The notes under the pieces are model-generated. The model worked only from the letters and a program-made list of their open reading frames with translations. It ran no database searches and was not told where the DNA came from. DNA of 64,000 nt from Escherichia phage phi92: sequence record NC_023693.1; one strand, given 5' to 3'. The position numbers and the translations under genes are program-made. Positions 19,558 to 41,374 of the stretch are shown in pieces (position 1 is the first letter of the stretch; every line of letters starts with the position of its first letter).

Positions 19558-20191
19558 TGCGAAGATCCTCCAGAGATTGTTTATATTGTTCCCAGTTTAC
19601 ACCAATCCCCTGTTCTTTCTCTTCTTTTGACAGATTCGCAAAAGGTAAAGGATTGTCTCCAAACACATCATCAGGATGGATAAACGCCATAATTCGAATA
19701 GGACATGGCACGCCTTGAATACCTCGGTTCAAACCTGCCAGTGGAACGCGATGAATCCACTCTGCATCTTCATATCCATAACCGTGGGTGTATGAGCGGA
19801 AATAGCCAGCTTTCTCAATAACTGCACGGGAATACATACCAAACTGGCACATACCTAGTTCCCAAATAACCACTTCCCCTTCAATACCTTTTACTTTATC
19901 TTTAAAGTATTCAGGCATACCAAAGAAATCCCAACCATTTTCCTTCGCCTGTTTTACAAAATATGTTTCCCAACCTGGAACAACAGGATAACAATCATCA
20001 TCAAAAATAAACCAGTAGTCATACCCTTCATCATAAAACTTTTTCATCAGTTCATTACGGGCATATGCAACACCTTTTCGTTCACGATCATACTGTACAA
20101 CAAAAGTAGCATTAGGATCAGTTACAAGATAATCTTTAAGAGGACGCTTACCTACAGTAATAACACCAACACCAATTTTTGTATTTTCCAA
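19505..20191 (-). CDS. GT-A-like glycosyltransferase
   Basis: 228 aa; DxD-type acidic motif YWFIFDDDCYP after a Rossmann-like N-terminus. Confidence 0.45.
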   Translation of the reverse strand: MENTKIGVGVITVGKRPLKDYLVTDPNATFVVQYDRERKGVAYARNELMKKFYDEGYDYWFIFDDDCYPVVPGWETYFVKQAKENGWDFFGMPEYFKDKVKGIEGEVVIWELGMCQFGMYSRAVIEKAGYFRSYTHGYGYEDAEWIHRVPLAGLNRGIQGVPCPIRIMAFIHPDDVFGDNPLPFANLSKEEKEQGIGVNWEQYKQSLEDLRNGKTFISYEEAQKYGKS

Positions 20192-20200
20192 AATAACTCC

Positions 20201-20764
20201 TTAAATAATTTTATTCATGTCTTGACAATGTAAAAGGTGTGAAACAGCTTTTCTAGGATCATCATTACCTAAACGGTATGTGTGAAATAAATATAACCCA
20301 CGTAGTAAACCTAGCCTTTTATTGTTAGCGTGCAATGCTTTAGAGAAAATTATATCAAACTGTATTGATCTTTCCTCAAAAGGAATTTCATTCCACAGAC
20401 TCTTACGAAAGAGAAGAAAGAATCCTGCTAAGATAGCATCTGTAGGTACTTCCTCTATTGAGTTTCCCCATTCTAGATGTGCTCTTTTTGCAATCTCAAT
20501 GTGGTGTAATATATTCGGATCTTCACTTCTTTCATTATTAAATAATTGATATGTTGATCCCAATCTGTTACAAGATGCACCAAGAACATCAAAATCAGGA
20601 TTTGAACGGACAATTGATTCCAGCCAAGCAGGTTGTTCTGGAAGAAGAAACATTGTATCAATGTCTCTTAGGCAAATCCAACTATCTTCTGGTAAGACAC
20701 TTATTGTGTCATTGATACCTTTTCCAATATCTCCAGAAAGATAGGGAGTTATGTGAAATATCAT
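20201..20764 (-). CDS. hypothetical protein (possible fourth glycosyltransferase-like gene)
   Basis: 187 aa ORF contiguous with the glycosyltransferase operon; acidic motif ICLRDIDTMF. Confidence 0.35.
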   Translation of the reverse strand: MIFHITPYLSGDIGKGINDTISVLPEDSWICLRDIDTMFLLPEQPAWLESIVRSNPDFDVLGASCNRLGSTYQLFNNERSEDPNILHHIEIAKRAHLEWGNSIEEVPTDAILAGFFLLFRKSLWNEIPFEERSIQFDIIFSKALHANNKRLGLLRGLYLFHTYRLGNDDPRKAVSHLLHCQDMNKII

Positions 20765-21512: not shown

Positions 21513-22022
21513 TTAGCGATAGAATTGATGTTCTTTGTAGCGGTACACTAGAACCATATCTTTTTCCCAGTGTGCTCTTATTGTAGATTTTTTAAAGTAT
21601 AATGCTCCTTTTGTAATATCTAATGCAATTCGTAATTCTGGAAAATGCGTATCGAGATAAAGTAGACGTTCTGCTATAGCCTTAGCTTCCTTCCACTTAT
21701 CACGTTCCATAACGTTGAATGTCTTTGTGTAAGAGAATTGTCCTTTTTGAAACAAAACTTCTTTTATAGTATCAGGGAAATATGAATCTCTAGCCCTATT
21801 CAATACTACATTACCAACAGCAGACATACCGCGCTTTCCTTGATTACGACTTTCTGCATAGATTGCACAAGCTAATAGATTTTCTTTACTATCACGCTTT
21901 GTACACTTGTGAACTACTTTAGCAGTTTTTACGTTTGCAGCTTCGGCTTGCGCCACAACAGGTGTAAATGTAAAAGCAGTTAAGGATAGTAACGCAATTG
22001 CGACAAAGGTTTTTATTGACAA
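21513..22022 (-). CDS. secreted cell-wall hydrolase (SleB/CwlJ-like)
   Basis: N-terminal signal peptide MSIKTFVAIALLSLTAFTFTPVVAQA; core AIYAESRNQG...VGNVVLNRA resembles the SleB-type hydrolase domain. Confidence 0.5.
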   Translation of the reverse strand: MSIKTFVAIALLSLTAFTFTPVVAQAEAANVKTAKVVHKCTKRDSKENLLACAIYAESRNQGKRGMSAVGNVVLNRARDSYFPDTIKEVLFQKGQFSYTKTFNVMERDKWKEAKAIAERLLYLDTHFPELRIALDITKGALYFKKSTIRAHWEKDMVLVYRYKEHQFYR

Positions 22023-22114
22023 ACTTGCCTCCTATTTTGTTAAACGAACTTTTATTGTAACACAGAAGAGGCTGTTTTGCAAGTGGAGGGGGATTATCCC
22101 CCTCTTACACTCTG

Positions 22115-22717
22115 TTAGATATTGTAAACCTTTGTATGAGTTACTACACCATCTTCTACAAAATCAATACGTTCTTGATCCGTAACTAGTGCAGACAACA
22201 CTTTAAATTTAATTTTTACACGTTCAAAAGCTGGTTGACCATCTTTAAGATAATTATGTTCAGTTGTCACTGTCTTGTTTACAAAATCAATTTTTGCTTT
22301 ACCGTTTTCGCGTAGGTGGAATGTTTTTCCTGCTTTGTACACAATTTCAACATTACCTTCGAGAATAATTCCTTCAAAAAGTTCACCATCTTCTTCATTT
22401 TCTTCACTTTTGAACAGACGACGAAACTCTTCCATATCAAGATAAACAACATCTTCAGGATGACTATCAGTAAGGTATGTCCTACCATCCATTAACCCGA
22501 AATATTGCCAGACTGCAGAATAAACATCACAATTTGATCCTGCGGTTTCCTTTAGTTTAGTTCCACGGATTACTTCATAAACTTCAAAATTAAAACCAGA
22601 CTGCAAAGCATTAAACAGTACATCACTAACTTCTAAAGCATAATCTTCATTGTTGTCAATATCCACAAGAAAATTACCGCTACGAATAAGTTTTTGACCT
22701 ACTAAAGTAATACCCAT
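22115..22717 (-). CDS. hypothetical protein
   Basis: 200 aa ORF. Confidence 0.4.
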   Translation of the reverse strand: MGITLVGQKLIRSGNFLVDIDNNEDYALEVSDVLFNALQSGFNFEVYEVIRGTKLKETAGSNCDVYSAVWQYFGLMDGRTYLTDSHPEDVVYLDMEEFRRLFKSEENEEDGELFEGIILEGNVEIVYKAGKTFHLRENGKAKIDFVNKTVTTEHNYLKDGQPAFERVKIKFKVLSALVTDQERIDFVEDGVVTHTKVYNI

Positions 22718-22742
22718 TGTTTTCTCCTCTTCTATTTAAAAT

Positions 22743-22758
22743 ATGCGCCCCGAAGGGC
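22743..22758 (-). terminator. terminator-like hairpin
   Basis: GCGCCC-CGAA-GGGCGC immediately downstream of the TerD-like gene. Confidence 0.35.
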
Positions 22759-22769
22759 GCTATGATTTA

Positions 22770-23366
22770 TTACTCGAACCAATCGTCGCCAGCGCCAAAC
22801 GCTTTAACTACATCGTAAATATCAAGCCCAGCTTTACCCACACCATACGCTTTCAGTTTCCATTCGCTATCTTCTCGCACCAGGGAGGCAACGTGGCAAA
22901 TGGTGTTACCTGCAAGTTCTGGAGCCAAGAAGTCAAAGTCCAGCAGTTCAACATTACGTTCATCATCGAAGATTTTAAGGAAACCTTCGGTAGCGTGACC
23001 AAGGCGTTTCTTACCCGTTTCGTCATCAATAGTAATTACGAATGCAATTTCCTGTGCTTCAGCAGAGATATTATCCAGTGTAACATCAATCTGCTCCATT
23101 TGTCCTACACCGTCACGAACATCTTCACCTGCAAAAGTAGAACGTTCAGGATCAAATTTCTGTGCGTAGCATACCAGGTGGCGAGGAGACAACAGTTCCG
23201 GCAGACCAGATGCATTGTGTCGGCAAATCAGAGCACTAACATCCAGATCCAGTTTTTCGTTAGATTTCCAAGAGAATTCCAGACGAATGCGTTTCAGTGC
23301 TGGTGCGATCTTTTTCAGGGAAACTTTTTCGCTAGAACCTTTTTTCAGGGAAATTTTCTGAGTCAT
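22770..23366 (-). CDS. TerD-domain stress-response protein
   Basis: 198 aa; N-terminus ISLKKGSSEKVSLKK and overall pattern typical of the TerD family. Confidence 0.65.
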   Translation of the reverse strand: MTQKISLKKGSSEKVSLKKIAPALKRIRLEFSWKSNEKLDLDVSALICRHNASGLPELLSPRHLVCYAQKFDPERSTFAGEDVRDGVGQMEQIDVTLDNISAEAQEIAFVITIDDETGKKRLGHATEGFLKIFDDERNVELLDFDFLAPELAGNTICHVASLVREDSEWKLKAYGVGKAGLDIYDVVKAFGAGDDWFE

Positions 23367-23438
23367 AATTTATTATCTCCTTTGTTGTTAATTTACGTTG
23401 TCTATTTTACTAATCTTTTCTACAAAGTCAAGCGTTTT

Positions 23439-24233
23439 TTACGCTTTTGCTCCGAATTTTTTAACCCACTCACCAAACTCTTCGGATAACAGTTTATCGT
23501 AAAGTTCTTCGTCAGACAAGGACAAATCTGCAATACCGATAAAATCAACATTATCGTATTCTTTTGCCAAGTCTTTCAGGAATTTAAAGTTTGCATTACC
23601 TACACCAACCATAAACCAGTAAACAGGAGTGTTGCGGTGTTTGTTCAGCAAACTACGTACTGCTGAAGTATCCATGTTCTCCCCGTCAGTTTGGAAGAAA
23701 ATCATTGCAGGAGTACGATCAACTTGTGCATCAGTATCTACAACCTGTTCTACAACAGTACGTGTAACTTCTACACGTTCTTTTTTACCAGTTAGTTTAG
23801 CAAGGAAACCCTTAGCCGGAACTTCTTCATACTCAACGACTTCGCGTGTAATATTTTTCATAGGTACACTACCGAAGTATGTATCATAGATCTCTTGCAT
23901 TACTGGGGCATAAGCTGTACCACCATTGATGCAAACATTAGACATACAAGAGCCGACATAATCATCATATACATCAGCCGTTGCGGGAGGCAGTTCAAAA
24001 GAAGAACTATTGAAAGCCCACATGTCAATCTGTGCATTATCATCAAATTTCATACCAAACGGCAGCAGCTTACCTACAAAATCACTAACAGTGCCATCAC
24101 GATACAGCTCACACATACTACCCGAAATATCTAAGGCGCTACCGACACGAAGAACAACATCGTTAATCTTTTTCTTACGCAGAGATACGGTAAGAGTTTC
24201 TTGACGTTTTTTAAGACTGATTTTATTGGACAT
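23439..24233 (-). CDS. vWA-domain protein with TerD-like N-terminus
   Basis: ISLKKRQETLTVSLRKK N-terminus; MIDAS-like DISGSM, GGTAY and FFQTDGENMD blocks of a von Willebrand A domain. Confidence 0.55.
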   Translation of the reverse strand: MSNKISLKKRQETLTVSLRKKKINDVVLRVGSALDISGSMCELYRDGTVSDFVGKLLPFGMKFDDNAQIDMWAFNSSSFELPPATADVYDDYVGSCMSNVCINGGTAYAPVMQEIYDTYFGSVPMKNITREVVEYEEVPAKGFLAKLTGKKERVEVTRTVVEQVVDTDAQVDRTPAMIFFQTDGENMDTSAVRSLLNKHRNTPVYWFMVGVGNANFKFLKDLAKEYDNVDFIGIADLSLSDEELYDKLLSEEFGEWVKKFGAKA

Positions 24234-24234
24234 A

Positions 24235-24504
24235 TTATTTCTCCTTTCTGAGTGTAATGTTAGTAACTTCTAAATCCACTTCTACCATTTCTGTATCATA
24301 TGAAATACAGCTAAGTTGACCTCTTTGTGAACCGTTCAGACACATTGCTTGGTTTGTATTAACCTTAATAAACACTAAGTTTCTGAACGTATCTAAACCA
24401 GCATCTTGATAGGCAACATAATATACAAATGTATCACCTGCGTCAAGTTCTCCAAAACATTTAGGTTCATCTGATTCGTCGTCTTTGATATTAAATTTAA
24501 GCAC
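24235..24504 (-). CDS. hypothetical protein
   Basis: 89 aa ORF. Confidence 0.35.
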   Translation of the reverse strand: MLKFNIKDDESDEPKCFGELDAGDTFVYYVAYQDAGLDTFRNLVFIKVNTNQAMCLNGSQRGQLSCISYDTEMVEVDLEVTNITLRKEK

Positions 24505-25060
24505 TATCTTCTCCTTTACCTACTTTCAAGCCTAAATAGAAAGCCTCTCTAGTGATTTTTTGCAACTCGTTTAAAGAGATAGTTACAACTAAATCATCTT
24601 CAATTTCTAGTTTTGAGTCTTCTTCTGTCTCAATGCAAGTATTATGCACTTTGTGGTAAGGATTGTCAACACGTTTAAATTTATTATTTTCAGTGCTGAA
24701 GAAGCAATCTGGATCTTCTTCCCCATCACCCCAACCCTGGTTAGGATCTTCTTCAGATCTTTCTGTTGGGATCTCACCTGTAAAGTGTTCTTCTAATACC
24801 AGAGCAATCCCATCTCCAAGATCGGAAGAGAACATCAAATTACAAACTTCTTCCCAAGGCATAGACCACTTAAATCTTTTACGATTGCCATGTTTATCTT
24901 CTTCGTTAGAGAAAACACTACCATAGCTATCATAATTCCCATACATCTCTTCGACAACCTTACCACCTTTCAAAAGAAATAGGTAGCAAGGAGAGCCATC
25001 GAAAGAGGTAGAGAGAGCAGCATTACCAGACTCTTTGCACAAGAAACTAAAACACCCCAT
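24497..25060 (-). CDS. hypothetical protein
   Basis: 187 aa ORF. Confidence 0.4.
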   Translation of the reverse strand: MGCFSFLCKESGNAALSTSFDGSPCYLFLLKGGKVVEEMYGNYDSYGSVFSNEEDKHGNRKRFKWSMPWEEVCNLMFSSDLGDGIALVLEEHFTGEIPTERSEEDPNQGWGDGEEDPDCFFSTENNKFKRVDNPYHKVHNTCIETEEDSKLEIEDDLVVTISLNELQKITREAFYLGLKVGKGEDSA

Positions 25061-25260
25061 TATACACCAGCCTTAAGATCAATTAAAGCCAAAGTTGTTT
25101 CAGAGTGTGTTTGCTCGTCTACAGGCGCAGTCATATGATAATACAAAAAATCTTCGGCATCATACCAATCTGATTCTTGACCTTGTTTCCAACCATCAAT
25201 GAAAGCATCTTCCATAATGGTTTGCAATTCTTCACGAGTTAAGTGAATATCTTTACTCAT
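25060..25260 (-). CDS. hypothetical protein
   Basis: 66 aa acidic ORF. Confidence 0.35.
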   Translation of the reverse strand: MSKDIHLTREELQTIMEDAFIDGWKQGQESDWYDAEDFLYYHMTAPVDEQTHSETTLALIDLKAGV

Positions 25261-25493
25261 TACACATTCTCCTCTTTTACCAATTCCATCGTTGAATTGT
25301 CAAAACCATCTTTAGAAGAATAGGTATAGACAGAACGTAGTTCTCGCAGGACAGTGAATACATTAGGATCATCTAACCAAGCATCCTGGAGGAGAACATA
25401 ACGATCTTCATTGTCATACTGAACAGCAATCATAGAACCAGACAGTTTGTAAATTTTAATATTCATAATATATTTCTCCTTAAAGTAGACCAC
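25260..25493 (-). CDS. hypothetical protein
   Basis: 77 aa ORF. Confidence 0.35.
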   Translation of the reverse strand: MVYFKEKYIMNIKIYKLSGSMIAVQYDNEDRYVLLQDAWLDDPNVFTVLRELRSVYTYSSKDGFDNSTMELVKEENV

Positions 25494-26583
25494 GTTTAAC
25501 AGTTTGAATCATACCATCTTCAAGAGATTGCACTTCTTGAATGTAATCAATACGGGCAGCACGGGCTTCAGTGTTGATTCGGTTAGTTTCTTCCAACATT
25601 TTAACTAAGTTTTCTTGATCACGACGTAATGTTTCAATATCCAATACTTGACGATTAGCAAGTTGTGTAGCTTCAATTTGGTTTTGTGCAGCCAGATCAC
25701 TACCCATTGCAATAGCAGCATTAAATTCATTCAGTACATTGTTCTGTGTATCGGCTGCTTTCTTCTGGCGTAGACTTTCAATATACATAGAAAAGTTTGC
25801 AGAGTAAGCAGGGATAACATTATTCACAATATTACGGGCTGATCGCATCAAACTTGCAGATACTTTCTGCATACTTTGTACACGTGGCCCCATCTGAACA
25901 CACAGTAAGCGTAAGGCTTTCAGGTCTGCAATACGAATTTCAAGCAGATCCATAGTATCACGAGTACGCTGACGCTCTTCTACGTCATTTTCAGGCAGTG
26001 TATTAAGGCGAATTTCTTCTTTTTCATAAGTAGCTGTTAGAAGCTCTATATCTCTGTTTAAGCTAAGAGCATATTTTGCAATAGCCTCTTCTAAACGTTG
26101 CAGATATCGTAAAGAATCTTCTTCTTTTTTCAAGTCTGTTTGGAGTGTCTTTACCAAACCTTCAATACGGTTATTAATGGTGTCAAATTCTCCAAACAAA
26201 TCTTCTTTCATACCTAAAACTTTTTTAACTAGTTTACCTAAACCTTTAGATTGTTTAATAGAGTTAGGATCAAGTTGCTTTGCTTGCTTAATAAGTGCAG
26301 TTAAACGTTCACTCATTTCATCTCCCTGAGATGAACGCTGGTGTTTAAGCACTTCAGCATTAAGGTTACGAAGAGTAAGTCCTGCATCAGCACCAACCTG
26401 TTCAATCTCTTCACGCGACATTGGAGGCAGCATTTGTACAGGTCGTGCAACAGCAGGGGCATATACAGGGCTTGCATCCATAGCACTTGGAGCAAACAAA
26501 GACTTACTTTTTTCTGTTGTTGCCGTGAATACACTCATTTCAGACGGTTTGCTTTTTACGGCACTGATAAAAGGACTGGACAT
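25480..26583 (-). CDS. TelA-like (toxic anion resistance family) protein
   Basis: 367 aa, long helical coiled-coil-like sequence resembling the TelA/KlaA family. Confidence 0.55.
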   Translation of the reverse strand: MSSPFISAVKSKPSEMSVFTATTEKSKSLFAPSAMDASPVYAPAVARPVQMLPPMSREEIEQVGADAGLTLRNLNAEVLKHQRSSQGDEMSERLTALIKQAKQLDPNSIKQSKGLGKLVKKVLGMKEDLFGEFDTINNRIEGLVKTLQTDLKKEEDSLRYLQRLEEAIAKYALSLNRDIELLTATYEKEEIRLNTLPENDVEERQRTRDTMDLLEIRIADLKALRLLCVQMGPRVQSMQKVSASLMRSARNIVNNVIPAYSANFSMYIESLRQKKAADTQNNVLNEFNAAIAMGSDLAAQNQIEATQLANRQVLDIETLRRDQENLVKMLEETNRINTEARAARIDYIQEVQSLEDGMIQTVKRGLL

Positions 26584-26651
26584 TCAATTTCCTCCATATT
26601 CTTTAGTAAATGGTGATACCTCTGTACCACCATCATAACACAAATTAAGTA

Positions 26652-27521
26652 TTAAACAAACATATCTAAATAATTTGTAGTAATAAATGCTCCATCTGCT
26701 TCCAGATTAACATAACCAGTAGCATTAGTGGTTAAGAAATCCAGATCGAAGGACTCTTTAACACCCCGTACCTCAACACGAGAGATATCGAATACAGGTA
26801 GTGTAACAGCCTCTTCGTGCAATACCGTACCTTTGTAGGTTGCCTTAATGATAAACTTGATATTACCTGTTCCAGCATCATATAAAACACTTTCAAACCC
26901 TTTGAGAGTATATTTATCACCAGAGGTGAAGTGCAAAGTTGCTTTGTTTACAGTACGGTTCTTACGAGGAGTTCCTTTCACACGTTTATGATCACTACGT
27001 CTTTTGCATTTAGGAATGAATACAAACGATACACTCTCAAGAAAGGTATCAACATCAAGGATTTTAATATCCTCTGTTGCAGCAAATTTTGAAGTAGTTG
27101 CATCAAAATGCTTTTCCCTGCGATCATACATAAAGATATCAAACCGATCTTCTAAATCAAACCGATCTTCTAAATCAAACAAATTATGCAGTTTAATTTC
27201 AGAATGCTTGCACATTGCAGCAACCTTAAACTCTTCAAAACGTGGGTGTTCTACAAGTTCTTCAAGTTTTACACCAAAGACAGTATATTGTTTCGAAGTT
27301 TTTTCTGGTGTTGGCATTACAGAAGCATAATCACCGATTGCGCTCTTAAAGCAAAATTGTTCTTGACCTGTATTTTTACCAACGAATTTACAGTATTCGT
27401 CATCGTGCATACTTTCCTGGGTAGTACCAACAAACTCAAAACCATCTTTATTCTTCTCAAGGATTTCTTGATTAAAGATCCAACCTTCCAGGCGATATAC
27501 TTTACCAACTTCTAGTTTCAT
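26652..27521 (-). CDS. hypothetical protein
   Basis: 289 aa ORF; contains an exact 18-bp in-frame tandem duplication (EDRFDL twice). Confidence 0.4.
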   Translation of the reverse strand: MKLEVGKVYRLEGWIFNQEILEKNKDGFEFVGTTQESMHDDEYCKFVGKNTGQEQFCFKSAIGDYASVMPTPEKTSKQYTVFGVKLEELVEHPRFEEFKVAAMCKHSEIKLHNLFDLEDRFDLEDRFDIFMYDRREKHFDATTSKFAATEDIKILDVDTFLESVSFVFIPKCKRRSDHKRVKGTPRKNRTVNKATLHFTSGDKYTLKGFESVLYDAGTGNIKFIIKATYKGTVLHEEAVTLPVFDISRVEVRGVKESFDLDFLTTNATGYVNLEADGAFITTNYLDMFV

Positions 27522-27556
27522 CTGTTTCTCCTTCTTATTTAATCTGTATTAAATTA

Positions 27557-28162
27557 TTAACGACGACGTGAGCTACTAAAACTACGTTTCGACGAAGAAT
27601 AACTTTTCGAAGACTTACTATAAGAGCTAATAGGGCTTGAGTAAGACTTACGAGCAGAGTAATCACTATTCACTTTCGTTGTTGATGGGCGTGAATACGT
27701 TTGTACACTTTGCTGCTTAATTGTGTTTTGTTTAGTGGTTGTATATGTATTTCCTTGTTTATCATAAAAACTATGCTTTTGTGTTGTATATGCTTTACTG
27801 TTAGTTGTAGGAGCAGCGTTGTTATTAATAATTGTTGTGTTGCTACCACCATCTCTATAACCGCCACCGCCACTATTACCACTCAACATATGACCAAGAA
27901 GCATACCTGTAGCAAACTCACCTACACCAGAAGAACCACTGCCGCCTCCTTGCACAACAACTGTTGAAGGTTGTGCAGGTGCTGCTTGAACAACTTGAGG
28001 TGCAGGCTGATTTACATATTGTTCATCTACCATCTGATTTGGTGTTTGTTGGTAACGTTGATTTTGTACATTTTCAGAATCATCACAACCTACCAGCAAT
28101 GCACTACCTAAAACAACTGCAACAATAAAAGATTTAATGTTTTTCATTTGTAACCCTCTCAT
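27557..28162 (-). CDS. lipoprotein with low-complexity Q/S/T/Y-rich region
   Basis: Signal peptide with lipobox LLVGC; G-rich and S/Y/K-rich low-complexity C-terminus. Confidence 0.45.
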   Translation of the reverse strand: MRGLQMKNIKSFIVAVVLGSALLVGCDDSENVQNQRYQQTPNQMVDEQYVNQPAPQVVQAAPAQPSTVVVQGGGSGSSGVGEFATGMLLGHMLSGNSGGGGYRDGGSNTTIINNNAAPTTNSKAYTTQKHSFYDKQGNTYTTTKQNTIKQQSVQTYSRPSTTKVNSDYSARKSYSSPISSYSKSSKSYSSSKRSFSSSRRR

Positions 28163-28340
28163 TTAAAGTCTCAACACAATTTTTAAAATCCCTAGAGAAA
28201 CAATACATCTGTTCTCCGTTCCTGTTGATAGTAATTGTATGGTTATCAATATATGTTGTCAAGATAAAAATCAAACAAAACAACCCTAGAGCAAAACAAA
28301 TATTTTCAAACAGAATCCAAAGAACACGTAAAACCACCAT
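28134..28340 (-). CDS. small membrane protein
   Basis: 68 aa, hydrophobic segment; overlaps start of downstream gene. Confidence 0.3.
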   Translation of the reverse strand: MVVLRVLWILFENICFALGLFCLIFILTTYIDNHTITINRNGEQMYCFSRDFKNCVETLNERVTNEKH

Positions 28341-28379
28341 CAGATCACCTCAACAAAGCCCCCGAAGGGGCTTAATGAA

Positions 28380-29357
28380 TTAAGCAACAGTCTGGTCTTC
28401 TTTTTCAGGGAAGATTAAACTTGCAACAACACCCAACCCAAGAGTACCTAACACAATATACATACTGATCGTCGGATCAATGTGTGCTGGCAGGAAACTG
28501 GCTTTTGCGTGCAGAGTTTCTGCAAACGGGTGATACATCAGTTTTACACCCACAAACACCAGGACTACGATAACTGCTTTCTCCAGATGAACCAAATATT
28601 TCAGTGCAACACTAAGGACAAAGAACAGAGCACGTAGACCTAAGATTGCACAGAGCATCGAAGAGAACACTAGCAGAGGTTCTTGTGTCACTGCAATCAC
28701 TGCTGGAACAGAGTCTACTGCAAAGATTACGTCAACCATTTCCATTACAAACACACAAACCAGAGCCGGAGTTGCTACACGAACACCATTTTTGATTGTG
28801 AAGAACTTCTCACCATCCATCTGATCAGATACAGGGAACAGCTTACGAACAATGCGAGTAGCCCAGTGTTTAGAGTAATCAACTTCTGCATCATTATCTC
28901 CAGCGAATACCATTTTAGCCGCACAGAAAAGGATGACAGCACCGAAGAAGATATTAACATACCAGCCCAAACTCAACAAGTAAGTACCTACTGCTACAAA
29001 CACACCTCGGAAGACAATCGCACCTGCAATACCCCAAAGTAGAATCTTGTGCTGCAAGTGTGTGCTTTTAATACCAAAACTTGCGAATACTGCTACAAAT
29101 ACTACTAAGTTATCTACAGAAAGAGATTTCTCCAACACATACCCACTCAAGAACAAGCTCGCAAAATCAGCACCGTGTTGGAAGTATACAAAACCATAGT
29201 AGGCTAATGATACCCCAATCCAGAAAATTGACCAGCCAATTGCAGATTTAAATGAAATTTCTTTGTTTTCTCTGTGTCCAAAGAAATCAATACAAATCGA
29301 CAAGACTAAAATACCCACTAAAACAACCACATCAATAATTGGGAAACCCAGTTGCAT
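28380..29357 (-). CDS. TerC-family integral membrane protein
   Basis: 325 aa with multiple hydrophobic helices and conserved acidic residues in helices, as in TerC. Confidence 0.6.
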   Translation of the reverse strand: MQLGFPIIDVVVLVGILVLSICIDFFGHRENKEISFKSAIGWSIFWIGVSLAYYGFVYFQHGADFASLFLSGYVLEKSLSVDNLVVFVAVFASFGIKSTHLQHKILLWGIAGAIVFRGVFVAVGTYLLSLGWYVNIFFGAVILFCAAKMVFAGDNDAEVDYSKHWATRIVRKLFPVSDQMDGEKFFTIKNGVRVATPALVCVFVMEMVDVIFAVDSVPAVIAVTQEPLLVFSSMLCAILGLRALFFVLSVALKYLVHLEKAVIVVLVFVGVKLMYHPFAETLHAKASFLPAHIDPTISMYIVLGTLGLGVVASLIFPEKEDQTVA

Positions 29358-29375
29358 TCTTTTCTCCTCTTTAAT

Positions 29376-29396
29376 GCGGAGGACAATCCTCCGCTC
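29376..29396 (-). promoter_or_regulatory. hairpin in leader of TerC-like gene
   Basis: GCGGAGG-ACAAT-CCTCCGC located between the - strand RBS and the upstream gene. Confidence 0.3.
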
Positions 29397-29434
29397 TATG
29401 TCGTATACTATAAACTGTTTTTAAAGAAAGTCAA

Positions 29435-29683
29435 CTAGTTCAGTTCTGTAATTTTAAGTTTATCTTCTTTGTTAATGATAGGGAAAGCTACAGCATCACC
29501 TACATCATCAATAAAGCAAATAGCAAGACCACCTTCCACTTTGCTAACCTGACCATTAAAGGCGTGATACGGGGCAGGAACAATATCTCCATCTTCAAGG
29601 AGAATAGCCTCATAAACCTTACCAATAGTACAATCACGAGTGTTTTTAAATTTTTCAAGCACTTCAACATTTACTTTACGCAT
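29435..29683 (-). CDS. hypothetical protein
   Basis: 82 aa ORF. Confidence 0.35.
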   Translation of the reverse strand: MRKVNVEVLEKFKNTRDCTIGKVYEAILLEDGDIVPAPYHAFNGQVSKVEGGLAICFIDDVGDAVAFPIINKEDKLKITELN

Positions 29684-29697
29684 ATAAAGATCCTCTC

Positions 29698-29904
29698 TTA
29701 TTTGTTAGATTGAAAGATACCACGAAGTACCGCAAGAATGAACGTCACACAGACTACACTCCAAAACGTTACAGGAACATGATGCCAGTCTAAACCGATA
29801 ATGTCAATCATATAGTTGTATGCTAAAAGCAGTAGCCAACTAGGGATTAACACAATCAAGAACACAACAATAAAACAACCTAATACTGCTAAAACACCTG
29901 CCAT
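29698..29904 (-). CDS. small membrane protein
   Basis: 68 aa with two hydrophobic helices. Confidence 0.35.
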   Translation of the reverse strand: MAGVLAVLGCFIVVFLIVLIPSWLLLLAYNYMIDIIGLDWHHVPVTFWSVVCVTFILAVLRGIFQSNK

Positions 29905-29913
29905 ACTTTCTCC

Positions 29914-30630
29914 TTATTTCAGTTTGTAAACAATTACATTTAAACCTTTGTTCACTAGAGTTTCTTCGATCATAAGTTTTACAATATTCCAAGAACCTCC
30001 AGCCAAACCACAACCAAGCATTGGTAAACCTACAATTTTACCGCCTGAAGATACAACATCGTCTCCCATACTATCTAACGCATTGTAGATAGCTTCATAA
30101 TTCAGGTCACGCTTACCTTCCTCACGACGACTATAACCATATTGTCCATATAAATTATAAATTGTCAAATTGTTTTCTGTATACTTAGTAAACGTACCTA
30201 ATTTTTTATAATCACCACGTTTAGTGGCACAATCTGCTTTAAACGCACCAGGCCACTTGCTTTTAATTTTTGGTGCAATACCACTACCCATAGTGCAAAA
30301 ACAGTTACAGCAGTGTGCTATAGCGTCTATATCGCCTCTCTCGGCTGCTGCTAAAAGATCACCGTATACCTCAATGATACCTGCTGGATAACTTGTTACA
30401 ATTTCATCTTCCCAGTACATTTGCTCTACACCACCGATCAGTGCAAAGTTTTGTGTAATGCGATCATCAATATAATTAAGACCTGAAACATACACAGCAT
30501 ATTCATCCTGTGCTGTAATACCTTGTACACGAATTCTTAAGACACCATCTTTATCTGTTGCTACACGCCCAAAATCTTTTTCTGTAATATTGGTGATAGG
30601 ATCTCCGAAAGTCGTCACTTTATTAGACAT
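29914..30630 (-). CDS. macro-domain (ADP-ribose binding/hydrolase) protein
   Basis: GDIDAIAHCCNCFCTMGSGIAPKI and GLPMLGCGLAGGSW match macro-domain signature blocks; start set to ATG (MSNKV) with RBS aaagggga, 2 nt after the upstream stop. Confidence 0.5.
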   Translation of the reverse strand: MSNKVTTFGDPITNITEKDFGRVATDKDGVLRIRVQGITAQDEYAVYVSGLNYIDDRITQNFALIGGVEQMYWEDEIVTSYPAGIIEVYGDLLAAAERGDIDAIAHCCNCFCTMGSGIAPKIKSKWPGAFKADCATKRGDYKKLGTFTKYTENNLTIYNLYGQYGYSRREEGKRDLNYEAIYNALDSMGDDVVSSGGKIVGLPMLGCGLAGGSWNIVKLMIEETLVNKGLNVIVYKLK

Positions 30631-31480
30631 AATAATCCCCTTTAACATTAGATTTGTTGATAATGTTGCTTTCAAAAAATTGACGCAGGAAATCAAAGTT
30701 CTCTTTGTATTTTTCAATATTATTGTAACCTTCTGCAAGGCAACCAAAGAACAGTTGTTCTACATAATACAAAGGAAGTTGTGAAAGTGCAATTTTAAAA
30801 TCAACTTCGCTTTGACTCATTAGATACTTAATAGGACGAACCAAACATTTAGCATCAGTTTCTTGCTTAATCATTTTAATAAAAGCTGCCAGGTTATTGA
30901 TATAGTTGAAGTTAAGTGCAGCTTCGGTGTTGGCTTCTGTACCTTCATACTTTGCAAAGTACAGGAAAAACGTATCGTTTTCAACACCTTCTTTGTCTAA
31001 AATTTCAATAAGTTTTTCTTCGTGTGTACCTGTAATATTAACATCATCAATGAAAATCAGATTTTTATCGCCCCAAAAATCACGATTGATAGAGAAAGTA
31101 TCACCATCGATCAAAGCCTTACGATCTTCTTTGCTAAGAAATCCATAATCATTGATATAGCTCACTTTACGATGAACGATATCCCACTCTACTGCTTTAC
31201 CTCCTTTGATAGAGATTAGGTAGTTGAGGTGATCTACAAAATGTTCAGATAACACTGTAGCTGCATTTTTAACATAGTTATATGGAGATGGAATAACAAC
31301 AAAACTTTCATTTACCAGTCGTTCTTCATATTTAGAAAAGAAACTTTCAGCCAGAATGCGTCCCATTCTTTTTGCTGCCTGGTTGCTGCCAAACTTTAGT
31401 TTGGAATAATCTGCAATGTTAAATTTTGCTTCCTTCAGGTTAGTAAAAGTATTAGCAAAATGTTGAATTTGATTACGCAT
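30623..31480 (-). CDS. phosphoribosyltransferase-fold protein
   Basis: PRPP-binding-type motif NLIFIDDVNITGTHEE. Confidence 0.5.
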   Translation of the reverse strand: MRNQIQHFANTFTNLKEAKFNIADYSKLKFGSNQAAKRMGRILAESFFSKYEERLVNESFVVIPSPYNYVKNAATVLSEHFVDHLNYLISIKGGKAVEWDIVHRKVSYINDYGFLSKEDRKALIDGDTFSINRDFWGDKNLIFIDDVNITGTHEEKLIEILDKEGVENDTFFLYFAKYEGTEANTEAALNFNYINNLAAFIKMIKQETDAKCLVRPIKYLMSQSEVDFKIALSQLPLYYVEQLFFGCLAEGYNNIEKYKENFDFLRQFFESNIINKSNVKGDYYV

Positions 31481-32129
31481 TAATAAGTTCCTCTTTTTTA
31501 AGTTTAGCCAACAAGTCTTCTGGATTAATAATATGACAGAACTTCATCCCTATGTCAACAGCTTTTCCATCATAAATCAAACTATCTCCAACGTGTAAAA
31601 TCTCCTCTGGTGCGAGATCAAACGTTACCATTTCATCAAAAGAGAGTTTAAAAAACCTAGGATCTGGTTTACACAAGCAAAACTCATCAGAAAAATGCAT
31701 AAAGTCAAATGGTAATTTTGTCAAGCCAGAATATACAGCTAAGAAACTACCAGGTACAAAATTAGTATTGCTCTTAATACTCAAAGAGTAGGTTGAACTT
31801 AGCTCTTCCAACTTCTTGCAAAGTTCAGGATTCAAGGTTGGAGGATGTTTTATAAACATTGCTAAACAGTCTCTTTTTAACCCATCCACTTTATCAAGAT
31901 CAATGTTCAAACGAGTAGAAAGTGTTACCCAAGCATCCTTAGACGTTCCACAAATGCCTTTTTCTGCTTTTAAATCCAAGAGAGTTTTTACCTCTTTATA
32001 TACGGTAGCTGCTTCTACCTCAGAACAAGAGGCATACTCGGCAATAACCTTGTTGCGCTCTTCTGCATACAAAGGGTTAGCAGTAATAAGAGTATTCCAT
32101 ACATCAAAAGAAATATGCTTAACAGTCAT
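31473..32129 (-). CDS. HAD-superfamily hydrolase-like protein
   Basis: Motif I-like FDVWNTL (second Asp replaced), motif II SIKSNT, motif IV GDSLIYDGK; start set to ATG (MTVKHISF) after RBS ggagga. Confidence 0.5.
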   Translation of the reverse strand: MTVKHISFDVWNTLITANPLYAEERNKVIAEYASCSEVEAATVYKEVKTLLDLKAEKGICGTSKDAWVTLSTRLNIDLDKVDGLKRDCLAMFIKHPPTLNPELCKKLEELSSTYSLSIKSNTNFVPGSFLAVYSGLTKLPFDFMHFSDEFCLCKPDPRFFKLSFDEMVTFDLAPEEILHVGDSLIYDGKAVDIGMKFCHIINPEDLLAKLKKEELINA

Positions 32130-32131
32130 TT

Positions 32132-32287
32132 TTAATCCTCCGTCCAAAAGAATATCATCTGCTTAATTTTATTGATTTCTTGATGTAGTAACTTTCCAGC
32201 ATGTGATTGATCTTTAATATTGACAGCAAGAATTTCAAGTTCCGTTAGTTTTTCTTGGATAGCTTTATATTCATCATCTGTAAGCAT
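32132..32287 (-). CDS. small hypothetical protein (51 aa)
   Basis: ATG with RBS aagggga; in-frame stop overlaps RBS of the HAD gene; below track size cut-off. Confidence 0.35.
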   Translation of the reverse strand: MLTDDEYKAIQEKLTELEILAVNIKDQSHAGKLLHQEINKIKQMIFFWTED

Positions 32288-32298
32288 TTTCTTCCCCT

Positions 32299-32502
32299 TT
32301 AGAATGGTAATCTTTGTATGTCACTTATCCCCACACCAAGAAGTCTAGCAATATCCTTATCTAAAAGCAACTCTTTTTGTTCTAAAATGTTAATCAGATC
32401 TCCTAATACTTCTTTAATGTCACGATCATTTTTAGCAACGTGACCACCTGCCGTATCAACTTTATCTTTAAAAACAAAGTAATGATCCATAATACCCTCC
32501 AT
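32299..32502 (-). CDS. hypothetical protein
   Basis: 67 aa ORF. Confidence 0.35.
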   Translation of the reverse strand: MEGIMDHYFVFKDKVDTAGGHVAKNDRDIKEVLGDLINILEQKELLLDKDIARLLGVGISDIQRLPF

Positions 32503-32509
32503 ATAAATA

Positions 32510-32528
32510 AAGGAGGCTTTCGCCTCCT
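32510..32528 (-). terminator. terminator hairpin
   Basis: GGAGGC-TTTC-GCCTCC with flanking A/T runs, downstream of the ATPase gene. Confidence 0.45.
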
Positions 32529-32536
32529 TTTATCAC

Positions 32537-33697: not shown

Positions 33698-33717
33698 AGT
33701 TTTCTCCTCTATTTAAT

Positions 33718-34188
33718 TTAGTCAGATTCCCAAATGTTGTCTTTCTTAATCCACATTCGTTGATTATCTGAACCTCTATAACGTTTCGTTGTTGGTTGAT
33801 TCATATCATACTTACCATCTATCACTATGTCAACCAGTTTTTTAATTTTTTCTGGAATTTCCTCAAAAAGATATCCTGTATATAAGACAATATCTTTTTT
33901 GTTTCCAAAACAATCTCTTACCTTCTCAAGAACATACTCTACAGTGTCAATGTTCTCTTTGTCAAGAGGTTCACCACCTAAAACTGTTAATCCTTTAATG
34001 AAAGGTCGAGATAAATCTTTCAAGATAAGATCTAATGTTTCAGTAGTGAACTCTTGTCCGTAGTTATACGACCAGGCTTTCTGGTTAAAGCAGCCACGGC
34101 AACCGTGGCTACAACCGCTCACCCACAAAGAGCATCTTACACCGTCACCGTTGAGCATGTCAACAGGTTCATATCCGGCGTAATTCAA
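33718..34188 (-). CDS. nrdG: anaerobic ribonucleotide reductase activating protein (radical SAM)
   Basis: CSHGCRGC radical-SAM cysteine cluster near N-terminus; 156 aa; adjacent to nrdD. Confidence 0.75.
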   Translation of the reverse strand: MNYAGYEPVDMLNGDGVRCSLWVSGCSHGCRGCFNQKAWSYNYGQEFTTETLDLILKDLSRPFIKGLTVLGGEPLDKENIDTVEYVLEKVRDCFGNKKDIVLYTGYLFEEIPEKIKKLVDIVIDGKYDMNQPTTKRYRGSDNQRMWIKKDNIWESD

Positions 34189-35164: not shown

Positions 35165-35398
35165 CATTACGTGCTGCTGCATGTCACCATGCAGATCAGA
35201 CTATATCTTCATGCTTAAAGCATGTCTACCATTTGGGGTGTCATAGGCTTACACCCTACGCTGCTACATTCATCACAGCTAGTCGTTAGGCATTTCGTAA
35301 CAGTACCCCCTTCTTCTGTGTTGGGAGTTCTGTTACGTTTAGCACGGGATTGTCTCGTTGAGAGTTCCCCCGTTTAGGCAGATTTTACATGAGCAGTT
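35165..35398 (-). ncRNA. group I intron (T4 td/nrdD-like), ORF-less; splice sites approximate
   Basis: About 235 nt interrupt nrdD; - strand reads ...TCTGCCTAAACGGGGGAACTCTCAACGAGACAATCCCGTGCTAAAC... closely resembling the conserved core of the T4 td intron as recalled from memory. Confidence 0.6.
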
Positions 35399-41373: not shown

Positions 41374-41374
41374 T

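What the first reader, a model, noticed from the sequence alone, without database searches (positions are those of the whole stretch)
22770..29357. Ter-like stress-response gene set (TerD, TerD-vWA, TelA, TerC) inside a virulent-phage replication block
Four genes within 7 kb carry hallmarks of the bacterial tellurite-resistance-associated families: a TerD-domain protein (22770-23366), a vWA protein with TerD-like N-terminus (23439-24233), a TelA-like protein (25480-26583) and a multi-helix TerC-like membrane protein (28380-29357). They are interleaved with unassigned genes, a lipoprotein and small membrane proteins. These families are normally chromosomal or plasmid-borne and of unclear biochemical role. 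Their co-occurrence in a phage suggests deliberate remodelling of host membrane or metal/stress physiology during infection.
Basis: partly seen in the sequence, partly recalled or inferred. Interest (0 to 1): 0.8.

Follow-up and report, generated by a model that had tools for sequence, protein, structure and literature searches.

The report
Known Ter gene set in phi92-like phage
The four "tellurite-resistance-type" genes are really there and well conserved, but this is a phi92-like E. coli phage in which they are already annotated and discussed in the literature, and what they do during infection is still untested.

Summary
Pfam assigns 22770-23366 to TerD (5e-28), 23439-24233 to vWA-TerF-like (7e-39), 25480-26583 to TelA (3e-34) and 28380-29357 to TerC (1e-38), all on the minus strand. 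The window is 98% identical to phi92-like coliphages (Justusliebigvirus: VEcB, alia, Paula), where these genes are already annotated. Published work describes the same terC/terD/terF-vWA/telA sets in other virulent phages and proposes superinfection exclusion.

What I add:
- A translationally coupled HAD-like/PRTase_3/macro trio lies directly upstream. HAD-PRTase_3 recurs beside Ter genes in three differently arranged phage lineages, but also occurs alone.
- TerC is 46% identical to plasmid ter-operon TerC and keeps all five acidic residues required for Alx Mn2+ export.
- The vWA "TerD-like N-terminus" is only a 20-residue motif that belongs to the TerF C-terminal module.
- The TerD calcium motif is degenerate.
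- TelA has no bacterial relative above 27% identity, so the set is old in phages.
- The interleaved ORFs are lineage-specific.
- The Ter genes are under strong purifying selection, and TerC and TerD each have a sigma70-like promoter.

Best reading: an early-expressed, reduced Ter envelope module. Exclusion of rival phages or colicins is plausible but unproven. Novelty: already known. Interest: about 0.3.

The parts
31473..32129 (-). HAD-like hydrolase with non-canonical motif I (FDVWNTL: the nucleophile Asp is present, Asp+2 is replaced by Trp). It overlaps the PRTase start by 8 nt.
   Evidence: Pfam Hydrolase 1.3e-5, just below cut-off. NCBIfam HAD-IA families, all below their cut-offs. Motif conservation across 8 phage lineages. 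9 nt and 0 aa differences from Paula.
30623..31480 (-). PRTase_3 (ComF-like phosphoribosyltransferase) with an invariant PRPP loop, IFIDDVNITGTHE.
   Evidence: Pfam PF15610 6.1e-41. 49 invariant columns among 8 lineages. A HAD gene is always immediately upstream. dN/dS 0.024.
29914..30630 (-). Macro-domain protein with an extra N-terminal domain of about 90 aa. It overlaps the PRTase stop by 8 nt and is probably a separate DarG-like counter-defence gene.
   Evidence: Pfam Macro 3.1e-7. Best NCBIfam and PADLOC hits are DarG, 5.5e-13 and 1e-13. Absent after PRTase in KP13-16 and L007, and next to NAMPT in phiPsa397.
29698..29904 (-). 68-aa protein with two hydrophobic segments.
   Evidence: Hydropathy. 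PHROG of unknown function. 60% identical in phAPEC8.
29435..29683 (-). 82-aa unknown protein, absent from phAPEC8.
29407..29434 (-). Sigma70-like promoter TTGACT-16-TATAGT in the 77-nt gap upstream of TerC, followed by a 5'-UTR hairpin (GCGGAGGA..TCCTCCGC).
   Evidence: phAPEC8 annotates a host-dependent promoter at the equivalent site.
28380..29357 (-). TerC family membrane protein with 9 hydrophobic segments. All five acidic residues essential for E. coli Alx Mn2+ export are conserved (E76, D82, E206, D209, D215).
   Evidence: Pfam 1.2e-38. NCBIfam Alx subfamily 323.8 bits. 46% identical to plasmid ter-operon TerC and 37% to K-12 Alx, with residue mapping. Residue requirement from PMC10197570.
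28134..28340 (-). 68-aa protein with an N-terminal TM segment. It overlaps the lipoprotein start.
   Evidence: 49% identical in phAPEC8.
27557..28147 (-). Lipoprotein (signal peptide, lipobox LLVGC, then Asp-Asp at +2/+3). It has a Gly-rich hydrophobic core (GVGEFATGMLLGHMLSG) and a low-complexity Ser/Thr/Gln tail.
   Evidence: Sequence. 35% identical in phAPEC8 gp054, lipobox LTAC|ED. Inner-membrane retention is inferred from the +2 rule (established knowledge, not tested).
26652..27521 (-). 289-aa lineage-specific unknown protein with a DLEDRF tandem duplication.
   Evidence: No Pfam, NCBIfam or credible PADLOC hit. Only 16 homologues in 1.84 billion representatives.
25480..26583 (-). TelA-family protein, all-helical and without TM segments.
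   Evidence: Pfam 2.6e-34. Nearest bacterial homologues are at most 27% identical. dN/dS 0.034. The AF2 model is low-confidence.
25060..25466 (-). Two small acidic unknown proteins (25260-25466, 68 aa; 25060-25260, 66 aa).
   Evidence: PHROGs of unknown function. Partly conserved in phAPEC8.
24497..25060 (-). 187-aa protein whose N-terminal 135 aa belong to a very conserved, uncharacterised phage family. It is not Ter-linked elsewhere.
24235..24504 (-). 89-aa unknown protein.
23439..24233 (-). Stand-alone vWA domain of the TerF C-terminal type. The DxSxS part of the metal-binding (MIDAS) motif is present (LDISGSM).
   Evidence: Pfam PF10138 7.2e-39. Aligns to TerF residues 192-404. 7 nt and 0 aa differences from Paula.
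23404..23431 (-). Sigma70-like promoter TTGACT-16-TAAAAT in the 72-nt gap upstream of TerD.
22770..23366 (-). Single-domain TerD protein. DxDxSA is kept (LDLDVSA), but the acidic Ca2+ loop is degenerate (GEDVRDGVGQMEQ in place of GDNRTGEGDGDDE).
   Evidence: Pfam 5.1e-28. PDB 2kxt/2kxv 8.6e-15 with alignment. Phage TerD alignment. 13 nt and 0 aa differences from Paula.
22745..22760 (-). GC-rich hairpin (GCGCCC-TTCG-GGGCGC) followed by ATATTTT, 10 nt after the TerD stop. Likely an intrinsic terminator closing the set.

Best explanation
This is the conserved, phage-adapted reduced Ter module of the phi92/phAPEC8 lineage (Stephanstirmvirinae). It is not a recent host capture.

Shown:
- The four core proteins are one TerC-type metal-transporting membrane protein, one TelA, one stand-alone TerF-type vWA and one TerD.
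- They lie in about 6.6 kb behind two sigma70-like promoters and end at a hairpin terminator.
- A coupled HAD-like/PRTase_3 pair lies immediately upstream.
- All of these genes are under strong purifying selection.

Inferred mechanism:
- The genes are transcribed early by host RNA polymerase.
- TerC inserts in the inner membrane and moves a divalent metal (Mn2+-type site).
- TelA, the vWA protein (through its metal-binding site) and TerD assemble on the cytoplasmic face of the membrane.
- The co-transcribed lipoprotein, predicted to stay in the inner membrane, faces the periplasm.
- Together they alter the envelope and ion state of the infected cell. The phage factory is thereby protected from outside insults, above all superinfecting phages and colicin-type toxins. 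These are the phenotypes (Phi, PacB) that the plasmid ter operon is reported to confer.
- The HAD-like/PRTase_3 pair makes a ribosylated small molecule from PRPP that may feed or signal to this module. That link is the weakest step.
For: Identity of the parts:
- Pfam and NCBIfam hits above curated cut-offs.
- PDB TerD match.
- TerC is 46% identical to ter-operon TerC, and all five residues essential for Alx Mn2+ export are kept.
- The vWA protein keeps the DxSxS part of its metal-binding motif and aligns to the TerF C-terminal half.

Functional constraint: against Paula, TerD has 13 nt changes and 0 aa changes, vWA 7 and 0, TelA 18 and 2, TerC 11 and 1, PRTase 21 and 2, HAD 9 and 0.

One conserved unit:
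- The set is colinear in phAPEC8.
- It is rearranged but still within 12 kb in Klebsiella phage KP13-16.
- An unrelated phage contig, L007, carries TerC-TerD-vWA-HAD-PRTase_3 in 7 kb.
- Only the Ter families and HAD/PRTase are shared between these lineages. The filler ORFs are not.

Old in phages: TelA relatives at 39% identity or above all sit on phage contigs of about 150 kb, and the nearest bacterial ones are at most 27% identical.

Early, host-type expression: TTGACT-16-TATAGT and TTGACT-16-TAAAAT sit exactly in the two intergenic gaps, and phAPEC8 annotates a host-dependent promoter at the equivalent site.

Exclusion idea:
- The ter operon is reported to give phage inhibition and colicin resistance (Whelan 1995, as cited in PMC9796965 and PMC8386662).
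- Iyer et al. propose Ter-based competition with superinfecting phages (PMC7824862).
- Klebsiella TerC is needed for tolerance to envelope-active agents (PMC9933665).
- The classical ter locus also carries a PRTase and a HAD.
Against: - No experiment exists on any phage Ter gene, so the exclusion phenotype is extrapolated from a much larger plasmid system (TerZABCDEF plus accessory genes).
- TerB, TerA, TerZ and TerE are absent here.
- The phage PRTase_3 and HAD have no detectable similarity to the ter-locus PRTase and HAD.
- The HAD-PRTase_3 pair occurs alone in T4-like, Rhizobium and Caulobacter phages, far from any Ter gene. It may therefore be an independent nucleotide-metabolism or counter-defence cassette.
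- The HAD lacks the Asp+2 general acid of phosphatases, so a "nucleotide to nucleoside" step is uncertain.
- The acidic Ca2+ loop of TerD is degenerate.
- The promoter pattern count is not significant on its own: 2 found against 1.27 expected.
- None of the core proteins hits a PADLOC defence model.
Confidence: 0.5

Rival explanations
1. Metal-management module for the phage's own needs. TerC exports Mn2+, or hands it to secreted proteins as B. subtilis MeeF/MeeY do. TerD, vWA and TelA act as metal-sensing or regulatory partners. The purpose would be to set cytoplasmic Mn/Ca for phage enzymes, or to metalate exported phage proteins such as the signal-peptide cell-wall hydrolase encoded 750 nt downstream. 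Exclusion of competitors would not be involved.
For: - The phage TerC keeps all five acidic residues required for Alx Mn2+ export and scores above the cut-off for the Alx metal-homeostasis subfamily.
- TerC proteins metalate exoenzymes during secretion (PMC10550928).
- TerC occurs alone in several 75-90 kb phages (Proteus, Vibrio, Pectobacterium, Aeromonas). It therefore has value to phages without the other Ter proteins.
- A Hydrolase_2 cell-wall hydrolase with an N-terminal hydrophobic signal lies just downstream.
- The vWA protein has a metal-binding motif.
Against: - It does not explain the tight co-conservation of TelA, vWA and TerD with TerC across rearranged lineages.
- No Mn-sensing yybP-ykoY riboswitch precedes the phage TerC.
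- The Hydrolase_2 family is not known to me as a Mn enzyme.
- In Klebsiella, TerC was dispensable for resistance to metal stress (PMC9933665 abstract).
Confidence: 0.25
2. Two unrelated modules that are merely neighbours. TerC, TelA, vWA and TerD form a membrane module of unknown role. HAD-like/PRTase_3/macro is an independent nucleotide, NAD or ADP-ribose cassette used for counter-defence or salvage, for example a DarG-like macrodomain reversing DNA ADP-ribosylation.
For: - HAD-PRTase_3 is an obligate pair in many phages that have no adjacent Ter genes. There it sits among nucleotide-metabolism genes such as TK, adenylosuccinate synthetase, NMN adenylyltransferase/Nudix and NT5C.
- Ter sets without HAD/PRTase_3 exist (phiPsa397).
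- The macro domain is closest to DarG, and phage DarG mimics are known counter-defences (PMC11481870, PMC13309987).
- There is a promoter between the two blocks.
Against: - HAD-PRTase_3 lies within a few kb of TerC, TerD and vWA in three differently ordered lineages.
- Classical ter loci also pair Ter proteins with a PRTase and a HAD.
- Iyer et al. count PRTase and HAD as Ter signal-synthesis components.
Confidence: 0.2
3. A host-benefit "moron" that gives the bacterium tellurite or other xenobiotic resistance, or non-functional passenger DNA.
For: The GenBank product names say "tellurite resistance". Iyer et al. mention possible xenobiotic resistance during pseudolysogeny.
Against: - The phage is virulent, with no lysogeny genes seen in the annotated relatives.
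- TerB, TerA, TerZ and TerE are missing.
- Warring et al. judge such partial sets unlikely to give tellurium resistance.
- Strong purifying selection and conservation over more than 130 genomes exclude decay.
Confidence: 0.05

Closest known systems
Annotated orthologues in phi92 (gp172, gp173, gp178, gp182, gp185-187) and other Justusliebigvirus/Phapecoctavirus genomes
   Same: 98% nucleotide identity over 12 kb, with the same genes in the same order. The products are already named stress protein, toxic anion resistance protein, membrane-bound tellurium resistance protein, phosphoribosyltransferase, phosphatase and hydrolase.
   Different: Essentially nothing. The window differs by an 18-nt indel in the 289-aa ORF. 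Outside the finding, it also has a group I intron in nrdD and an intein-like insert in the helicase.
Ter gene sets described in other virulent phages: Klebsiella phiKp34, Pseudomonas PhiPsa374 (Otagovirus), Caulobacter and Acinetobacter jumbo phages
   Same: The same four families (terC, terD, terF-type vWA, telA) are clustered. Published interpretations include an antiviral, stress-response or superinfection-competition role, or function unknown (PMC8386662, PMC9796965, PMC7824862).
   Different: Proteins are only 20-40% identical to those here, except TerC of KP13-16 at 68%. Gene order differs. phiKp34/KP13-16 have two TerD genes. PhiPsa397 lacks HAD/PRTase_3.
Plasmid/O-island terZABCDEF tellurite-resistance operon with its accessory PRTase/ATP-grasp/HAD block (IncHI2 R478 type)
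   Same: TerC is 46% identical. TerD is 27-28% identical to TerD/TerE. The vWA protein is 24.5% identical to the TerF C-terminal half. A PRTase and a HAD are present in both loci.
   Different: The phage lacks TerZ, TerA, TerB, TerE, the TerD half of TerF, the ATP-grasp, HpcH lyase and StiP protease. The phage adds TelA, which in plasmids belongs to the separate kilA/telAB system. The phage PRTase_3 and HAD are not detectably similar to the plasmid ones.
E. coli Alx and B. subtilis MeeF/MeeY (TerC-family Mn2+ exporters and exoenzyme metalation factors)
   Same: Nine-TM TerC fold. All five acidic residues essential for Alx are conserved. The phage protein scores above the cut-off for the Alx NCBIfam subfamily.
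   Different: Only 37% identical to Alx. No Mn riboswitch lies upstream. It is embedded with TelA, vWA and TerD partners that E. coli K-12 does not have next to alx.

Membership tests
TerD domain family (PF02342) | Full-length match to the TerD beta-sandwich profile and to solved TerD structures | tested here: met
   98.2 bits against a cut-off of 25.3, profile positions 3-178 of 187. 2kxt/2kxv 8.6e-15 and 3ibz 3.3e-13 over residues 5-180.
TerD domain family (PF02342) | Canonical Ca2+-binding motifs (DxDxSA and the acidic GDNxTGxGxGDDE loop; motif definition recalled from the Klebsiella TerD structure paper) | tested here: inconclusive
   LDLDVSA is kept. The loop reads GEDVRDGVGQMEQ, with three acidic positions replaced by V, Q and M. 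phAPEC8 shows the same pattern, while L007 and phiPsa397 keep DDE. Metal binding was not measured.
TerF (TerD + vWA fusion) | N-terminal TerD domain fused to a C-terminal vWA-TerF-like domain | tested here: not met
   Only the vWA-TerF-like half is present. The protein aligns to TerF residues 192-404. There is no TerD Pfam hit. Similarity to the phage's own TerD is limited to 20 residues, E 0.086.
vWA-TerF-like (PF10138) | Profile match above cut-off and the DxSxS part of the metal-binding (MIDAS) motif | tested here: met
   134.5 bits against a cut-off of 29.4. D-I-S-G-S at residues 35-39, read directly from the translation. The downstream Thr and Asp positions were not checked in an alignment.
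TelA (PF05816) | Near full-length match to the TelA profile | tested here: met
   119.2 bits against a cut-off of 30, profile positions 13-330 of 332. The TelB/KlaC partner of the plasmid telAB system was not found among the ORFs scanned.
TerC family / Alx subfamily | Profile match above the curated cut-off, multi-TM topology, and conserved intramembrane acidic residues needed for Mn2+ export | tested here: met
   PF03741 133.1 bits. TIGR03718 323.8 bits against 246.4. 9 hydrophobic segments. E76, D82, E206, D209 and D215 correspond to Alx E86, D92, E213, D216 and D222. Transport activity is not testable here.
Complete TerZABCDEF tellurite-resistance system | Presence of TerB and of multiple TerD paralogues (TerZ, TerA, TerD, TerE) | tested here: not met
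   There is no TerB hit and only one TerD-domain gene among all ORFs from 21.5 to 33.7 kb.
Complete TerZABCDEF tellurite-resistance system | Confers tellurite resistance, phage inhibition and colicin resistance | not testable with these tools
   Phenotypes are reported for plasmid R478 only (cited). No data exist for any phage set.
Ter-associated nucleoside-synthesis module (PRTase + HAD phosphatase) | PRTase with an intact PRPP-binding loop next to a HAD enzyme, linked to Ter genes | tested here: met
   PF15610 6.1e-41. The IDDVxITGxHE loop is invariant. HAD is always immediately upstream. The pair is adjacent to Ter genes in 3 lineages, but free-standing in others.
Ter-associated nucleoside-synthesis module (PRTase + HAD phosphatase) | HAD member is a canonical DxD phosphatase orthologous to the ter-locus HAD | tested here: not met
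   Motif I is FD(V/F)W(N/K)TL in all 8 phage sequences, against FDFDGTL in the plasmid HAD. There is no BLAST similarity to the plasmid HAD or PRTase at E <= 1.
Known anti-phage defence systems (PADLOC, e.g. TerY-P) | Match of core proteins to curated defence-system models | tested here: not met
   No PADLOC hit for TerD, vWA, TelA, TerC, PRTase_3 or HAD. Only the macro domain hits DarG.

The most novel reading that the evidence does not exclude
The minimal four-protein phage Ter set (TerC, TelA, vWA, TerD), perhaps driven by a small ribosylated product of the HAD-like/PRTase_3 pair, is a self-contained device. It would reprogram the inner membrane of the infected cell to block DNA entry by rival phages and uptake of colicins. 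Because it works in E. coli K-12 with a tractable virulent phage (the BASEL phi92-like isolates), it would give the first mechanistic handle on what Ter systems do. That question has been open since the 1990s.
Probability: 0.2. Interest if true: 0.7.

Novelty: already known. Interest (0 to 1): 0.3.

Why it matters
The biochemical role of Ter proteins (TerC, TerD, TelA, TerF) is still unresolved, although they are widespread in pathogens and linked to gut and bladder fitness in Klebsiella. A virulent coliphage that keeps a stripped-down, strongly conserved four-protein version, expressed from host-type promoters in a K-12-infecting background, is a convenient minimal system for finding out what these proteins do. 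As a genome-scan finding it adds little: the genes are already annotated, and the hypothesis is already in print. The useful refinements are these:
- the true extent of the module;
- the conserved transport residues of TerC;
- the non-canonical HAD;
- the fact that HAD-PRTase_3 is a separable phage cassette;
- the fact that the interleaved ORFs are lineage-specific filler and not system components.

Tried and rejected
1. Recent capture from the host: rejected. TelA is at most 27% identical to any bacterial protein. TerC is 46% identical to plasmid TerC and 37% to Alx. The DNA search of 5,426 E. coli genomes found only a 200-nt stretch at 69% identity.
2. Mn riboswitch upstream of the Alx-type TerC: none found. 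Rfam reports only a group I intron elsewhere in the window.
3. TelA fold assignment: the AF2 model was poor (pLDDT 57.8, pTM 0.36). Foldseek against the PDB returned only generic coiled coils, with no hit at E <= 0.001. No conclusion drawn.
4. TerD-vWA fusion: rejected.
5. Interleaved unknown ORFs as hidden system components:
   - None is shared with KP13-16, L007 or phiPsa397.
   - The 289-aa ORF has only 16 homologues in 1.84 billion representatives.
   - The 187-aa ORF belongs to a widespread family that is not Ter-linked and has no fold match.
6. The 68-aa TM protein plus overlapping lipoprotein as a spanin pair: considered. The lengths (68 aa, 196 aa) and the composition do not fit. The spanin paper lists a phi92/phAPEC8 family but does not name the genes. 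Left open, judged unlikely.
7. Defence-system membership: no PADLOC hits for the core proteins.
8. The Anantharaman 2012 Ter paper and the phi92 genome paper could not be read because they are not held. The afdb50 fold library was unavailable.
9. dN/dS against phAPEC8 for vWA and HAD is unreliable, because the comparison was ungapped and the genes carry indels. Only the Paula comparison is used.

Full report
**What the window is.** All genes between about 8 and 48 kb are on the minus strand. The 12 kb around the finding is 97.8-98.1% identical, over its full length, to more than 50 sequenced E. coli myophages of the genus Justusliebigvirus (phi92-like; VEcB, alia, Paula, ALITA). It is 60-90% identical to Phapecoctavirus and to Klebsiella and Citrobacter relatives. 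In the annotated record of phage Paula, the region lies between DNA polymerase, primase/helicase, glycosyltransferases and a cell-wall hydrolase on one side. On the other side are an AAA ATPase, class III ribonucleotide reductase and a UvrD-type helicase. "Inside a virulent-phage replication block" is therefore fair.

**Check of the observation.** All four ORFs exist at the stated coordinates and exceed Pfam's curated thresholds:
- TerD: 5.1e-28.
- vWA-TerF-like: 7.2e-39.
- TelA: 2.6e-34.
- TerC: 1.2e-38.

TerC also passes the NCBIfam TerC/Alx metal-homeostasis subfamily cut-off, at 323.8 against 246.4 bits. TerD matches the solved Klebsiella and Streptomyces TerD structures at 1e-13 to 1e-15.

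First, the vWA protein has no TerD domain. It shares only its first 20 residues with TerD (E 0.086). The whole protein, that motif included, aligns to residues 192-404 of plasmid TerF, which is the vWA half.

Second, the set does not stop at 29357. Directly upstream, with 8-nt overlaps that suggest translational coupling, lie three more genes:
- a HAD-like hydrolase (31473-32129);
- a PRTase_3 ComF-like phosphoribosyltransferase (30623-31480, 6.1e-41);
- a macro-domain protein (29914-30630).

**Anatomy.** The only two sizeable intergenic gaps in the set each carry a near-consensus sigma70-type promoter. TTGACT-16-TATAGT lies 50 nt upstream of TerC, and TTGACT-16-TAAAAT lies 38 nt upstream of TerD. 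These are the only two occurrences of that pattern in 64 kb. The count alone is not significant. phAPEC8 annotates a host-dependent promoter at the equivalent TerC site. A GC-rich hairpin follows the TerD stop. The likely transcription units are therefore:
- HAD-PRTase_3-macro plus two small ORFs;
- TerC through vWA;
- TerD alone.

None of this expression pattern has been measured.

**Functional residues.**
- *TerC.* It is 46% identical along its full length to ter-operon TerC and 37% to K-12 Alx. It keeps all five intramembrane acidic residues shown to be essential for Alx Mn2+ export (phage E76, D82, E206, D209, D215).
- *vWA.* The DxSxS part of the metal-binding (MIDAS) motif is present (LDISGSM).
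- *TerD.* It keeps DxDxSA, but its acidic Ca2+ loop is degenerate (GEDVRDGVGQMEQ). TerDs of other phage lineages retain DDE at that position.
- *PRTase_3.* The PRPP loop is invariant.
- *HAD.* It has the nucleophile Asp, Ser/Thr, Lys and the GD...D motifs. In all eight phage lineages examined, Asp+2 is replaced by Trp (FDVWNTL), unlike the FDFDGTL of the plasmid ter-locus HAD. Its usual label "phosphatase" is therefore doubtful.
- *Lipoprotein.* It has Asp-Asp after the lipidated Cys. By the +2 rule this predicts inner-membrane retention. This is an inference.

**Comparative evidence.**
- The whole block is colinear in phAPEC8, at 49-81% protein identity.
- In the more distant Klebsiella phage KP13-16 the order is scrambled. 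TerC, vWA, two TerDs, TelA, HAD and PRTase_3 still lie within 12 kb.
- An unrelated phage contig (L007) carries TerC-TerD-vWA-HAD-PRTase_3 within 7 kb.
- Pseudomonas phage phiPsa397 has TelA-vWA-TerC-TerD without HAD/PRTase_3.
- The HAD-PRTase_3 pair, always in that order and usually overlapping, also occurs without neighbouring Ter genes in T4-like, Rhizobium, Caulobacter and other phages.
- All-against-all BLAST shows that only the Ter families and HAD/PRTase_3 are shared among these lineages. The interleaved ORFs are specific to the phi92/phAPEC8 group.
- Against phage Paula the core genes show almost only synonymous change, with dN/dS between 0 and 0.03.
- TelA relatives at 39% identity or above are all on phage contigs of about 150 kb. 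The nearest bacterial TelA is 27% identical over 40% of the length.
- Across 50,697 phage records, homologues are found in 244 (TelA), 214 (vWA), 175 (TerC) and 155 (PRTase_3) records.

**Comparison with the classical system.** A plasmid ter locus fetched for reference carries TerZ, A, B, C, D, E and F, plus ATP-grasp, PRTase, HpcH lyase, StiP protease and HAD genes. Relative to it:
- The phage lacks TerB, the extra TerD paralogues, the TerD half of TerF, and all accessory enzymes except a PRTase and a HAD.
- Those two phage enzymes show no detectable similarity to the plasmid ones.
- The phage adds TelA, which in plasmids belongs to a different operon.
- No core protein matches a PADLOC defence model.

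This is a reduced, differently composed Ter set. It is not a member of the TerZABCDEF system.

**What is already known.**
- GenBank records of phi92, Paula, VEcB, Eryne and others already name these products.
- Iyer et al. 2021 describe Ter systems in jumbo "and certain other related smaller tailed phages". They assign PRTase and HAD to signal synthesis, TerD and TerB to sensing, TerC to the membrane, and TelA and the TerF vWA to sub-membrane structures. They propose use against superinfecting phages (PMC7824862).
- Warring et al. 2022 and the phiKp34 genome paper report terC, terD, terF-vWA and telA clusters in virulent phages and note that the function is unknown.

The finding is therefore real but already known.

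**Mechanism.** I commit to the following, with stated uncertainty: an early-expressed, inner-membrane-associated module that changes the envelope and ion state of the infected cell and protects it from external insults. TerC acts as a divalent-metal transporter, and TelA, vWA and TerD act as cytoplasmic partners. The identity and conservation of the parts are shown. Early expression, assembly and the exclusion phenotype are inferred. The inference rests on the reported Phi and PacB phenotypes of the plasmid operon and on the envelope-stress tolerance role of Klebsiella TerC.

The main rivals are:
- a metal-management role for the phage's own enzymes or exported proteins (supported by the TerC residues and by phages that carry TerC alone);
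- the view that HAD/PRTase_3/macro is an unrelated neighbouring cassette.

**Dead ends.**
- TelA could not be modelled confidently.
- No riboswitch precedes TerC.
- The 289-aa ORF is nearly an orphan.
- The 187-aa ORF belongs to a remarkably conserved but Ter-independent phage family with no fold match.

**Verdict.**
- Observation: confirmed.
- Interpretation: partly supported.
- Novelty: already known.
- Interest: about 0.3, mainly because the minimal phage set is a tractable entry point to the long-open question of Ter function.

Noticed in passing
window 35177-35451 (-), within nrdD (34185-35156 + 35397-36263): A group I intron (Rfam RF00028, 70.6 bits, E 6.6e-16) splits the class III ribonucleotide reductase gene exactly at NRDD profile position 263. 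The close relative Paula has an uninterrupted 1800-nt nrdD.
   Followed up: partly
window 38599-41412 (-): The UvrD-type helicase is 937 aa here against 578 aa in Paula. It carries a Hint/intein-like insert at about residues 267-613. The Intein_splicing hit (32.5 bits) and the Hint hit (28 bits) are both just below the Pfam cut-offs.
   Followed up: partly
[not shown]
   Followed up: yes
window 29914-30630 (-): The best family match of the macro-domain protein is the DarG antitoxin macrodomain (5.5e-13 and 1e-13). It carries an extra N-terminal domain of about 90 aa that is absent from phAPEC8 gp050. phiPsa397 has a 36%-identical homologue beside NAMPT and PRPP synthetase. It is plausibly a DarG-like counter-defence, a kind already described in other phages.
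   Followed up: partly
window 31473-32129 (-) and homologues in L002, L003, L005-L008, L010: The HAD-like partner of PRTase_3 always has Trp in place of the Asp+2 general acid (FDVWNTL). It may therefore not be a phosphatase. The HAD-PRTase_3 pair is a widespread two-gene phage cassette of unknown product.
   Followed up: partly
window 18544-20764 (-): Three consecutive glycosyltransferase-like genes, one with a weak TET-associated glycosyltransferase hit (6.6e-5, below cut-off). They are conserved in phAPEC8 and KP13-16. The BASEL paper mentions a putative dTDP-glycosylation machinery in phi92-like phages.
   Followed up: no
window 28380-29357 (-) against Phapecoctavirus genomes: TerC is about 95% identical in some Phapecoctavirus phages (ECO340P1, tuntematon, BI-EHEC) but about 71% in others. 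This suggests recent exchange of this gene between the two genera.
   Followed up: no
GenBank MG065639, MG065645, MG065656, MG065689 (against window 22000-34000): Records named "Campylobacter phage" (A150, A145, C3, A110a) are 97.8% identical over the whole 12 kb to this E. coli phage lineage. The host label may be wrong or reflect contamination.
   Followed up: no
window 29358-29406 (-): A perfect 8-bp stem (GCGGAGGA-TTG-TCCTCCGC) lies between the TerC promoter and its ribosome-binding site. Paula annotates it as a terminator on the opposite strand. Its role (5'-UTR stabiliser, attenuator, or terminator for the opposite strand) is unknown.
   Followed up: no
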